A DNA stretch of 64,000 bases from Octopus vulgaris (lineage: Eukaryota). The notes under the pieces were generated by a model, which was given only the letters and a program-made list of their open reading frames with translations, made no database searches and had not been told where the DNA came from. Both the position numbers and the translations under genes were made by a program. Position 1 is the stretch's first letter. Each line of letters opens with the position of its first letter. Below, piece by piece: positions 12,266-17,665 of this stretch. The DNA is taken from positions 58,156,001 through 58,220,000 of the forward strand of contig OX597822.1 of NCBI GenBank assembly GCA_951406725.2. Reading direction: 5' to 3'.

Positions 12266-14414
12266 TTAATTTCCCACCTTTCATAACATACACAAATCAA
12301 CAATCCAATTATCTGAAATTCTTCAACCCCATATACTGCTGTTCCAATCATATTCTTCTTGCAAATGTTCAACAAATGCACATATAAATGTTCAAATTGA
12401 TTAGCAATGAAATCGATCTATACAAAGAGCATGGTCCTTGCTTTTACCTTTCTGGACTAATTTATTTTATTTCTTTACTTGTTTAAGTCACTGGACAGCA
12501 CTCATGATGGGCATCTTTGTTAAGATGCAACCACTACACTTTGTGGAGTGGTTGGCATTAGAAAAGCATATCCAGCTGTAGAAACCATGTCAGAGTAGAC
12601 ATTGGAGCTTGGACAGTCCCCTGGTTTGTCAGCTTCTGTCAAACTGTCCAACACATGCCAGCATGAAAAATGGATGTTAAATGATGATGATGATGGTGTG
12701 TGTGTGTGTGTGTATTGCGCATGTGTGCAGGAATCTGTGTTCATATTTAGACCAGTCTAAAACAAATGGTGTTGTATGCTGTATCATTTCATGCTCCATA
12801 CTTTACCAGCTTAGCAAATATAGATCAACAAAGTTAAGGCACAACTGAAATCAGTGAACTGGAGGAGGGGTCAATTCTATTGCCCAAACCCTTGAAGGTG
12901 GTATCCTATGTGTGGCTGCAGTCCAATGACTGTGACTAATAAAAGAAACAAAATAGACATATGGGTACATTATAAAGGAAAGAGAGAAAGAGAAAAAAAT
13001 CTGAAAAGTATGTAGTACATGAGGCTAAACAGCCTAACTTATACAACACTTTTTAATTTTTGTTATTTTCTAATGGCCCAAAACATTTCTGAATAAATTA
13101 TATTTCATTATGAACAATAACAAAAGAAAACAAACTAATCATCATCTATTCTTCTCTCTTGTAACATTATTCTGAATGGTGACAGATGTTGATTCTAAGA
13201 GAAGGAGTTGAAGGGTACTTGGTAAAAAACAAAAACAATTTCCATTAATGAGGTAGTCAGGTGATTCTAAACACCTGTTACGTACATGATAGATTATAGG
13301 TACAAACGTTTTGGTTTTGTTTTTCAACAAAAAGAAACATTTGTAAACATCCTGTTACATTATTAGTGACTTTTCAGCCAGAACTCTTACAAAGGCAATC
13401 CCTAATTCTAATTTTTTTTTTGTTTTTAAAAAAAACCATCATTATCATTACTGTCATCATTTGGTTAAACTGTAATGTACTAGTATTTTAATATCTCAAT
13501 GCTTTATATCTAAGTAAAAATGCATTTTAAAAACATTCTCTGTGTGTGTGTATGTGCATGTATGTCTGTGTGCATGTGTGTGAGAGTGAGAGGGAGACAG
13601 AAAGAGTGAGAGGGAGAGACAGACAAAAAGTGACAGACTGACAGACAGGGTGTGTAAAGGTTTTAAAATAAGTTTTATTGTTATGTATTACTTGTAAGGA
13701 GCTGATCAAAAGTAGAATGGCTGTGAGAATATTATTAAGTTAGCTCACAAATTCTGAGAATCAGAAGGACCGATGGCACCAATGCTTATCTCTTTCTATA
13801 TCCAACCTCATAGCATTAATAAAATGAGGAACAAACAATATTCTAAAAAAGACTTTTGGTTTATGAGAGGGGTTTCTATTTTTTTCACTACTGCAGTGTT
13901 CTACACTCCATGGTACCTACATAGAATAAGGTACACTTAGCTACTGAGGGTTAAATAGTGAGTCACATGACAAAATGCAATGGTGATGATAGCACATTGA
14001 CTATTCTTCCTCTTTGTTAGCTGCTCAGCACCAAATCAACTCATTAATCTCTACTTTCAAGATTAGAAAGACTTTGATAACGTACATGAATGATATTCAA
14101 GTTTTAAAAAAAAACCTAAACCCCTCAAATATAATGTGTGTGCATGTGTTGTTGTTGTTATTTCCAATCTTCTATGAAAACATATCTGGCCACGGGGAAA
14201 TATTACCTTTACATGGGAACAGATGAGGGTTGGTAACAAGAAGGACATCCGACCATAACAATCTAATTCAATGAATTCTGTCTGATTCATGCAAGAATGG
14301 AAAACTGGAAGTTAAAACAATAACAATGATAATAGTGAAGATGATGATGATGATGATGGCAGTCATGATGTCCTATGTATGCTAAGTTTAAAGTCACAAA
14401 CAGCTAGTGCAACT

Positions 14415-14828
14415 TCTTGAGACAGCATTCACCCAGGGTGGGTTGAGCTTGCTTCATTCATCCTCAATGCTGCATCTCTCACAAACGCCGACCAGGCCTG
14501 GCGATTTGAGGCTAACGACCGCGTGATCTCCAACCACTCCTTATTCCAGCAGTGAACACCGTAGACATGGGGGCCTAGGTTGGGTTCCAGATCAGCCTTG
14601 ACTGTCATCAGCCAGGTTTTTCGTTGTCCACCACAGGGTTAGCGATAGCGATGTAGTGGAGAATGAAAAACCTGGCTGATGACAGTCAAGGCTGATCTGG
14701 AATCCAACCTAGGGCCCCATGTCTACAGCGTTTGCCGCTGGAATAAGGAGTGGTTAGAGATCATGCAGTCATTAGCCTCAAATCACCAGGCCTGGTCGGC
14801 ATTTGTGAGAGATGTAGCATCGAGGAGG
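14415..14828. mobile_element. Fold-back (inverted duplicated) 3' end of an RTE-clade LINE with an 8-bp TSD
   Basis: Arms 14461-14635 and 14652-14826 are ~90% identical reverse complements and translate to GGQRKTWLMTVKADLEPNLGPHVY..RWNKEWLE...LASN.QAWSAFVRD. The direct repeat GTGCAACT lies at 14407-14414 and 14829-14836. Confidence 0.88.
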
Positions 14829-15327
14829 GTGCAACTCACAAAAAATCTCTAAGCTAATACTGAAACTGTATTTCAGTAAGTGTTTCTATGATCAAAGCTT
14901 GCGCAGCGGGAATGGTATAATGTAAGTATGTATAGAAGCATATGGTAGTTGCGCACTATTAGCCAAGACCATACTGACTGAAACAGAGTAGGAAATGAAA
15001 ATATATAACATGAAGTTAATGGTCCAATCTTTATTTAGCTCTCAAAGAAGAACTTATTTCATACTGAAATACTCTTTACAAAGTGAAAATAGCAAAATCC
15101 TTGGCCATTATGTTATGTTCATAATCCACCCTACTGTTTTATTAGGTCCCTGCTATGTAAGATGTTAGTGATTTCCTAACTGACCTACCATATCTTATTG
15201 ATTTATTAATTAGTTGTTTTAGCAGCAGTACATGTTGCTGTTGTTGCTGTGGTTGTATTTAGTAGTTTATGTTGTTGTTCTCGAAGTAGTAGCAGTTTGA
15301 ATAGCTTAGGATCTAGTGCCACAGGAA

Positions 15328-17553: not shown

Positions 17554-17665
17554 ATGCCTTCTTTTATCCTGGATTCATTGTACTGTTTGTGGAAATCTAG
17601 CAGCTCACTGACAAGACCTCGCTGAAGCATGTCATCAACTCTTTTATCAAGACGTTCATTCAAGA
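17554..17665 (-). CDS. TRIT1: Internal coding exon (112 nt) of tRNA dimethylallyltransferase / tRNA isopentenyltransferase
   Basis: On the minus strand a polypyrimidine tract and ...TTTTTCAG acceptor precede the exon, which reads (x)[40 protein letters not shown] and ends at a GTAAGT donor. The [10 protein letters not shown]...GL..E..DFH motif is characteristic of the MiaA/MOD5/TRIT1 IPP-transferase family. Confidence 0.9.

What the first reader, a model, noticed from the sequence alone, without database searches (positions are those of the whole stretch)
14407..14836. Single-event fold-back RTE insertion forming a ~175-bp intronic RNA hairpin
Seen: two head-to-head copies of the same RTE ORF 3' end (14461-14635 and 14652-14826, about 18 differences, nearly all transitions) are separated by a 16-nt loop. 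The whole palindrome is flanked by one 8-bp direct repeat, GTGCAACT, and only the left arm carries the LINE 3' terminus. Inference: one retrotransposition in which the nascent cDNA folded back and copied itself. This would be an inverted duplication, not the non-overlapping inversion of classic twin priming. On the TRIT1-sense (minus) strand most differences become G:U wobbles and the rest are largely A:C mismatches. That would make it a strong candidate ADAR or Dicer substrate ~2.7 kb downstream of the exon, in a lineage known for extensive A-to-I editing.
Basis: partly seen in the sequence, partly recalled or inferred. Interest (0 to 1): 0.7.

Follow-up and report, generated by a model that had tools for sequence, protein, structure and literature searches.

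The report
Doubly primed LINE with self-copied hairpin
A short fragment of a common octopus jumping gene sits in a gene's intron as two mirror-image halves, likely made in one insertion primed from both DNA ends with the second copy folding back on itself; it is an unusually long example of a known kind of junction, with no sign yet of a function.

Summary
The palindrome is real: 175-nt arms, 18 differences, a 16-nt loop and one 8-bp TSD, inside a 20.3-kb TRIT1 intron. It is unique in the genome.

The loop continues the tail-less right arm in RTE sense, so the tail-primed cDNA cannot have folded back to make it. A second, internally primed cDNA is required, which is twin priming. Most likely that second cDNA snapped back and copied itself. 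A sister copy (L104) has this geometry and copies back into target DNA.

Inversions are a family habit (6 of 100 listed copies); this locus has the longest stem seen. The scan noted a similar inverting RTE family in another genome.

Unexplained: the arms differ from the family majority at 4 versus 16 sites (p≈0.01). Six independent runs hold the right junction but differ from this assembly at four bases there.

The G:U argument is empty (10 versus 6, p=0.45; the strands fold alike). ADAR editing is plausible but untested, a stronger hairpin lies in the same gene, and mis-mapped family reads would mimic editing at all six A:C sites. Low interest.

The parts
14407..14414 (+). Left copy of the 8-bp target-site duplication GTGCAACT, at the element's 3' end
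   Evidence: calibration
14415..14460 (-). Last 46 nt of the RTE-like LINE (ORF stop at 14431-14429, very short 3' UTR, one CAAGA tail unit), present only on this side; inferred to be the first, tail-primed cDNA
14461..14635 (-). Left arm: RTE 3' fragment, sense on minus, continuous with the tail; 4 differences from the family majority in 175 nt
14634..14635 (.). 2-nt microhomology (CA) at the inversion junction, readable as the end of the left arm or the start of the right piece
   Evidence: sequence against family copies: query 1-221 and 220-412 overlap by 2
14636..14651 (+). 16-nt loop: RTE sequence in sense on plus, continuous with the RIGHT arm
   Evidence: family hits cover query 220-412 in one piece; reference coordinates 1025-1217 versus 1043-1262
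14652..14826 (+). Right arm: RTE fragment, sense on plus, ending 46 nt short of the element's 3' end; 16 differences from the family majority; inferred to be the internally primed second cDNA
   Evidence: junction to unique flank seen in 6 runs
14827..14828 (+). Two bases matching neither element nor TSD (GG here; the first is A in all six other runs)
14829..14836 (+). Right copy of the target-site duplication
17554..17665 (-). TRIT1 (tRNA dimethylallyltransferase) exon upstream of the hairpin; the intron runs from 17553 to G000:C9:58153243, 20.3 kb
   Evidence: Pfam IPPT E 6e-5, just under the curated cut-off; homologues P0001 and P0002; exon map

Best explanation
This is a 5'-truncated RTE-like LINE fragment lying as two head-to-head halves between one 8-bp target-site duplication, likely made in a single insertion in which both target ends primed reverse transcription and the second cDNA then folded back and copied itself. 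Steps: (1, inferred from tail plus TSD) the first nick primes cDNA1 at the RNA tail. (2, required by the geometry) the other target end primes cDNA2 internally, 46 nt from the RNA 3' end, and it runs 193 nt. (3, inferred) the 3' TG of cDNA2 pairs with a CA 18 nt back in itself and extends, copying up to 175 nt. (4, inferred) that copy anneals to cDNA1, which leaves no seam at 14460/14461. The result would give a 175-bp stem in the TRIT1 pre-mRNA that is likely edited incidentally by ADAR like other octopus repeats, with no selected function.
For: The loop and right arm are one continuous RTE-sense piece. The TSD is beyond chance and within the 7-15 bp reported for RTE (PMC6007223, passages). 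There is a 2-nt junction microhomology. Both arms share a minority family allele (14566/14721; 46 of 151 copies). Sister copy L104 has the same geometry, its arms share a base absent from the other aligned copies, and the copy-back runs about 12 nt into the (AT)n target flank before joining the tail piece; this is what snap-back of the second cDNA predicts. L133 and L157 show fold-back of the target flank at the 5' junction. Classic twin-primed copies with 11-16-nt TSDs exist in the family (L092, L105, L159, L174, L184). One RNA suffices, and the model explains an overlap far above the human L1 median of 12 bp (PMC12016303, passages). No donor copy for the right arm was found: best 92%, and at most 2 of 9 non-CpG alleles shared among 151 copies.
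Against: Arms born identical should be equally diverged, but they carry 4 and 16 differences from the family majority (binomial p=0.012; 3 versus 15 without the shared site, p=0.008). Only 1 of 378 pairs from a 28-copy reference sample differ by as much. The right-arm changes are spread evenly (3,4,3,3,3 per 35 nt), so they are not one local cluster. The 18 arm-to-arm differences are also what two unrelated same-age copies would show. No clear microhomology was found at the internal priming site. The product cannot be told from direct end-joining of two RNA-templated cDNAs.
Confidence: 0.5

Rival explanations
1. One insertion by twin priming in which both cDNAs were copied from RNA over the same 175 nt, either from one RNA by displacement or from two RNAs (the second possibly from an older copy), and were then joined end to end at the CA/TG microhomology.
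For: It gives the same geometry and TSD. Twin priming with a second, different RNA is described for snRNA/L1 chimeras (PMC4476161, passages). A diverged second template would explain 4 versus 16.
Against: No donor was found (though only 40 of 1237 candidates were scored). Human overlaps have a median of 12 bp. The shared minority allele slightly favours one template.
Confidence: 0.25
2. Two events or later remodelling: an older RTE piece plus a younger insertion, or gene conversion of the left arm by a near-source copy.
For: Left arm is 97-98% identical to its best family copies, right arm 92%. The left arm has no change over 14461-14550.
Against: One TSD bounds both arms. The right arm has no tail, and no TSD lies at the centre. 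An average donor carries about 9 differences, so conversion would not make an arm look younger. The family is sparse: this is its only locus in the 347-kb gene.
Confidence: 0.1
3. One reading: the tail-primed first-strand cDNA folded back and copied itself (R2-type snap-back).
For: This route exists in the family: L082, L140 and L172 have the loop on the tail-bearing arm, and the arms of L140 share a 1-nt deletion. cDNA snap-back is described for R2 (PMC11371274, passages).
Against: Here the loop lies on the tail-less arm in sense orientation, and the inverted arm reaches 18 nt further 5' than the forward arm. The first-strand cDNA would have had to copy sequence it does not contain.
Confidence: 0.05
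4. Assembly artefact: the hairpin, or part of the arm divergence, comes from consensus errors at an inverted repeat.
For: All six other runs differ from the window at 14821, 14827, 14838 and 14844, although run X1 differs by only one substitution in 402 nt of right flank. Inverted duplicates lower nanopore accuracy (PMC7229812, abstract); the platform used for G000 is not known to me.
Against: The right arm-TSD-flank junction stands in 6 of 6 runs laid. Right-arm changes at 14801 and 14815 are shared with those runs, inferred from contigs covering 14799-14900 with only the four listed differences. A read chimera would duplicate flank DNA, not end in a TSD, and would not give CpG-type decay.
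Confidence: 0.05

Closest known systems
[quoted passage not shown]
   Same: Two opposed cDNAs, one tail-primed and one internally primed, head to head, with one TSD and microhomology at the junction.
   Different: Overlap is 175 nt against a human median of 12 bp (quartiles 4-17), the internal priming site is only 46 nt from the 3' end, and the element is RTE-like in an octopus.
R2 cDNA snap-back 5' junctions (PMC11371274, passages)
   Same: A cDNA 3' end primes synthesis on itself and leaves antisense element sequence at the 5' junction.
   Different: There the first-strand cDNA snaps back (loop on the forward arm, like L082, L140, L172). Here the geometry needs the second, internally primed cDNA.
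L1 foldback inversion / inverted duplication of target DNA (PMC10191854; bioRxiv 10.1101/2024.12.14.628481; passages)
   Same: The non-tail target end folds back through about 2 bp of homology and copies 52-220 bp, with the TSD kept. One of the cases in PMC10191854 combines this with twin priming.
   Different: There flanking genomic DNA is duplicated (like L133 and L157). Here the duplicated DNA is element cDNA.
Inverted-repeat ADAR substrates in introns; repeat-directed editing in coleoids (PMC9068888, passages)
   Same: A long repeat-derived stem in an intron; ubiquitous editing in squid falls mostly in introns and 3' UTRs overlapping repeats.
   Different: One insertion makes both arms, with a 16-nt loop. 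No editing has been shown at this locus.

Membership tests
RTE-clade LINE | Non-LTR reverse transcriptase ORF upstream in longer copies | tested here: met
   RVT_1 over the cut-off in 3 of 4 ORF pieces of L237/L239, weak DUF6451; atlas hits are RVT_1
RTE-clade LINE | Very short 3' UTR ending in short tandem repeats rather than poly(A) | tested here: met
   (CAAGA)n, (TCAAG)n and (AAG)n tails across the copies; that this marks RTE is my recalled knowledge, and microsatellite ends are noted in PMC9115989 (passages)
RTE-clade LINE | TSD of 7-15 bp | tested here: met
   8 bp here; range from PMC6007223
RTE-clade LINE | N-terminal APE endonuclease and placement in the RTE clade on an RT tree | not tested
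   The three longest copies fetched did not yield the 5' part and no tree was built; the RTE label rests on the features above and on recall. Identity with RTE-2_OV was not tested.
Twin-primed 5' inversion | Tail-bearing piece and inverted piece head to head inside one TSD, the inverted piece starting at an internal site | tested here: met
Twin-primed 5' inversion | Microhomology at the inner junction | tested here: met
   2 nt CA; too short to exceed chance by itself
Twin-primed 5' inversion | Complementarity between target end and RNA at the internal priming site | tested here: inconclusive
   Two unmatched bases at 14827-14828, and the first differs between assembly and runs
Twin-primed 5' inversion (classic form) | No or short overlap between the two pieces | tested here: not met
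   175 nt against a median of 12 bp: works like twin priming, but is not the classic product
First-strand cDNA snap-back (R2 type) | Loop continuous with the tail-bearing arm | tested here: not met
   Loop is on the inverted arm
Amplified palindromic element (MITE- or SINE-like family) | The junction recurs elsewhere in the genome | tested here: not met
   The exact 17-nt junction pattern occurs once in G000; none of the 40 scored candidates other than this locus holds both arms
ADAR-edited intronic hairpin | Long stem within a transcribed intron | tested here: met
   Predicted fold and exon map; transcription of this intron was not observed directly
ADAR-edited intronic hairpin | A-to-I changes in RNA against matched DNA | not testable with these tools
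   No raw RNA reads were available; only contigs of runs recorded or guessed as DNA or of unknown kind were laid
Dicer/Drosha small-RNA precursor | Phased or discrete small RNAs from the stem | not testable with these tools

The most novel reading that the evidence does not exclude
This octopus RTE family resolves stalled insertions by snapping back any free DNA 3' end at the junction: the first cDNA (L082, L140, L172), the bare target end (L133, L157), or the second, twin-primed cDNA (L104 and this locus). The last route, which I did not find described, writes long perfect hairpins into introns in one step. Each such hairpin would be a ready ADAR substrate, with two arms of equal age that record strand- or arm-biased mutation (4 versus 16 here).
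Probability: 0.3. Interest if true: 0.5.

Novelty: new variant of a known kind. Interest (0 to 1): 0.25.

Why it matters
If true, it extends twin priming, mostly described for mammalian L1, to an invertebrate RTE-like LINE. It also adds a sub-route (snap-back of the second cDNA) that loop orientation alone can tell apart from first-strand snap-back, so a genome-wide census is easy. It shows one way long intronic dsRNA arises in a lineage with heavy editing. For this single locus the consequence is probably nil: the hairpin is 2.7 kb from the nearest exon, it is not amplified, and nothing suggests selection.

Tried and rejected
Palindrome as its own family: rejected, the junction is unique.

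Empty site in a paralogue: the right flank is single-copy. The left flank was not searched.

Empty site in other samples: no joint skipping the element was listed in the 4 runs. However, 14360-14405 had no cover in any of them, and no contig was listed across the loop junction. These are holes in filtered, cut contig tables, so they are uninformative; the left and central junctions remain unconfirmed outside the assembly.

Donor for the right arm: none.

G:U enrichment as a sign of selection: rejected.

Pattern slip: one search used a base private to this locus and found only 5 places; it was repeated with the family base.

Motif scan for further TRIT1 exons inside the window found only the one exon.

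Papers: Ostertag and Kazazian 2001 and Gilbert 2005 are not held, so their treatment of inversion-duplications was not seen. No supplements were read; the breakpoint tables of PMC12016303 could hold long-overlap cases. Rfam and complex or structure prediction were not used.

Full report
Observation. The inverted repeat is there: arms 14461-14635 and 14652-14826, 175 nt, 90% complementary, with a 16-nt loop. It has 18 differences, 16 of them transitions. Both strands fold far better than 100 shuffles (z -32 and -29). GTGCAACT flanks the structure at 14407-14414 and 14829-14836. Its chance is about 1e-5 per position and 2.6e-4 with slack. In 87 family copies, 24 true flank pairs share a word of 8 nt or more, against 0 of 87 swapped controls, so it reads as a TSD.

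Host gene. An exon at 17554-17665 (minus) matches Pfam IPPT (E 6e-5, just under the cut-off) and two Octopus tRNA dimethylallyltransferases. Mapping P0001 gives a gene of about 347 kb whose next exon starts at G000:C9:58153242. The hairpin therefore lies in a 20.3-kb intron, 2.7 kb after the donor site.

The element. The arms are the 3' end of a dispersed LINE family: 1466 first-look candidates, and 666 and 788 exact hits to two short motifs. Longer copies encode RVT_1 (3 of 4 ORF pieces) and end in short tandem tails. The RTE label rests on these features and on recall; no tree was built and no endonuclease was recovered. The junction 17-mer occurs once in the genome, so the palindrome is not an amplified family.

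Geometry decides the mechanism. On a 1262-nt natural reference copy, the locus reads TSD, inverted 1217 to 1025, forward 1043 to 1262, tail, TSD. The loop belongs to the inverted, tail-less arm, and the two pieces share a 2-nt CA. A tail-primed cDNA that folds back can only copy what it already holds, and it leaves the loop on the forward arm. Two resolutions give this product. Either that second cDNA snaps back, copies itself and anneals to the first cDNA, or two RNA-templated cDNAs are joined at CA/TG.

Sister copies. Among 95 other distinct copies, chosen by similarity or by an upstream motif, 4 carry an inverted element piece. Of the 100 places listed for a 3'-end motif, 89 were examined and 5 were inverted. 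The 11 left out were 10 already held, one of which (L105) is inverted, and one inside L202; that gives 6 of 100. This is a lower bound, because the reference covers only the last 1262 nt, and the two samples overlap. L092, L105, L159, L174 and L184 are classic inversions with 11-16-nt TSDs. L082, L140 and L172 are first-strand fold-backs with 17-50-nt arms, and the arms of L140 share a 1-nt deletion. L133 and L157 fold back target DNA. L104 has this locus's geometry: its arms share a base absent from the other aligned copies, and the copy-back continues about 12 nt into the (AT)n flank. L104 is why I favour snap-back of the second cDNA. I saw it after reaching this reading and did not test it.

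Evidence against identical birth. Over 175 columns the left arm differs from the family majority at 4 sites and the right arm at 16 (51 copies; p=0.012). A sample picked by a motif outside the arms (28 of 30 usable; L107 and L112 dropped for short or failed alignment) spans 3-15 differences, mean 9.0, variance 7.7. Only 1 of its 378 pairs differs by 12 or more. The right-arm changes are evenly spread, mostly C-to-T or G-to-A, with 7 at CpG. No donor was found: the best other copy is 92% (40 of 1237 candidates scored), none of the 24 other hits to a private 21-mer has fewer than 2 mismatches, and at most 2 of 9 non-CpG alleles are shared among 151 copies. Both arms share one minority allele (46 of 151). 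The asymmetry remains unexplained; chance, a second template, conversion and consensus error all stay open.

Independent data. Contigs of 6 of 6 runs laid (X1-X4, X6, X7; four organism labels) join the right arm to the TSD and the unique flank, so that end is real and shared across these samples. All six differ from the window at 14821, 14827, 14838 and 14844, and probably at 14798 (inferred from clipped ends and counts), while X1 differs at 1 of 402 flank bases. This points to local consensus errors or a mutation cluster at the hairpin end. The changes at 14801 and 14815 are shared with the window, so part of the right-arm excess is real. The left and central junctions were not covered.

Function. 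The 10 G:U versus 6 A:C split is what transitions give at random (p=0.45), and the arms fold to -322 and -315 kcal/mol on the two strands. No compensatory change exists. Within the gene, 2 hairpins have arms of at least 100 nt at 80% or more identity and a loop up to 100 nt: this one and a 415-nt, 98% one. With loops up to 1 kb there are 7, and up to 5 kb there are 16. Of 106 loci (some duplicates), 43 hold an inverted repeat of 60 nt or more within about 3 kb. This is a good stem but not a rare one. Repeat-directed intronic editing is reported in squid (PMC9068888, passages), so incidental editing is likely, but it is untested here. At all six A:C sites the family majority has C on the plus strand, and contigs of the runs laid already show T-to-C at 14553, 14703 and 14733; mis-mapping would fake editing there. 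Dicer access to an excised nuclear intron is less likely than ADAR access (my knowledge).

Literature. Twin priming with overlap (median 12 bp; PMC12016303), first-strand snap-back (PMC11371274), target-flank foldback (PMC10191854; bioRxiv 10.1101/2024.12.14.628481) and two-RNA twin priming (PMC4476161) are described; I saw passages of each. Searches did not show snap-back of the second cDNA or twin priming in an RTE element. The two founding papers were not held, most subscription papers are outside the library, and no supplements were read.

Verdict. A real, single-copy, probably single-event LINE junction variant with a long stem. The mechanism is corrected from first-strand fold-back to twin priming plus snap-back. 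Function is unshown and probably incidental. Interest 0.25.

Noticed in passing
L234:4500-5327 (G000:C9:58394500-58395327): A second, stronger palindrome in a TRIT1 intron: arms of about 410 nt at 98% identity around a (TA)n centre. It looks like a fold-back duplication at the microsatellite, or an assembly artefact.
   Followed up: partly
L012, L029, L043, L054, L055, L057 (contigs C27, C29, C30): Copies of this LINE carry internal tandem arrays of a 103-bp unit, up to about 12 units, just upstream of the 3' end; several share the same unit boundary, which suggests a subfamily.
   Followed up: no
L104:1315-1444: Snap-back hairpin of the internally primed cDNA that copies back into the (AT)n target flank; the clearest example of the proposed route.
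   Followed up: yes
L133 and L157, 5' junctions: Short inverted duplications of target DNA directly at the element's 5' end.
   Followed up: partly
L105/L106 (G000:C1:214089714-214090545): Two copies tail to tail about 330 nt apart, 89% alike; one is itself 5'-inverted and interrupted by another repeat.
   Followed up: partly
window 14798-14844: Four (probably five) bases differ from all six other runs although the nearby flank is nearly identical in X1: possible consensus errors or a mutation cluster at the hairpin end.
   Followed up: partly
L010:2503-2852, L052:841-1284, L092:146-423, L108:618-1107: Unrelated palindromes of 280-510 nt at 80-92% beside family copies; long hairpins are common in this genome.
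   Followed up: no
G000:C9:58072785-58419953: TRIT1 spans about 347 kb and has a 167-codon internal exon of low-complexity sequence (residues 153-319 of P0001).
   Followed up: no
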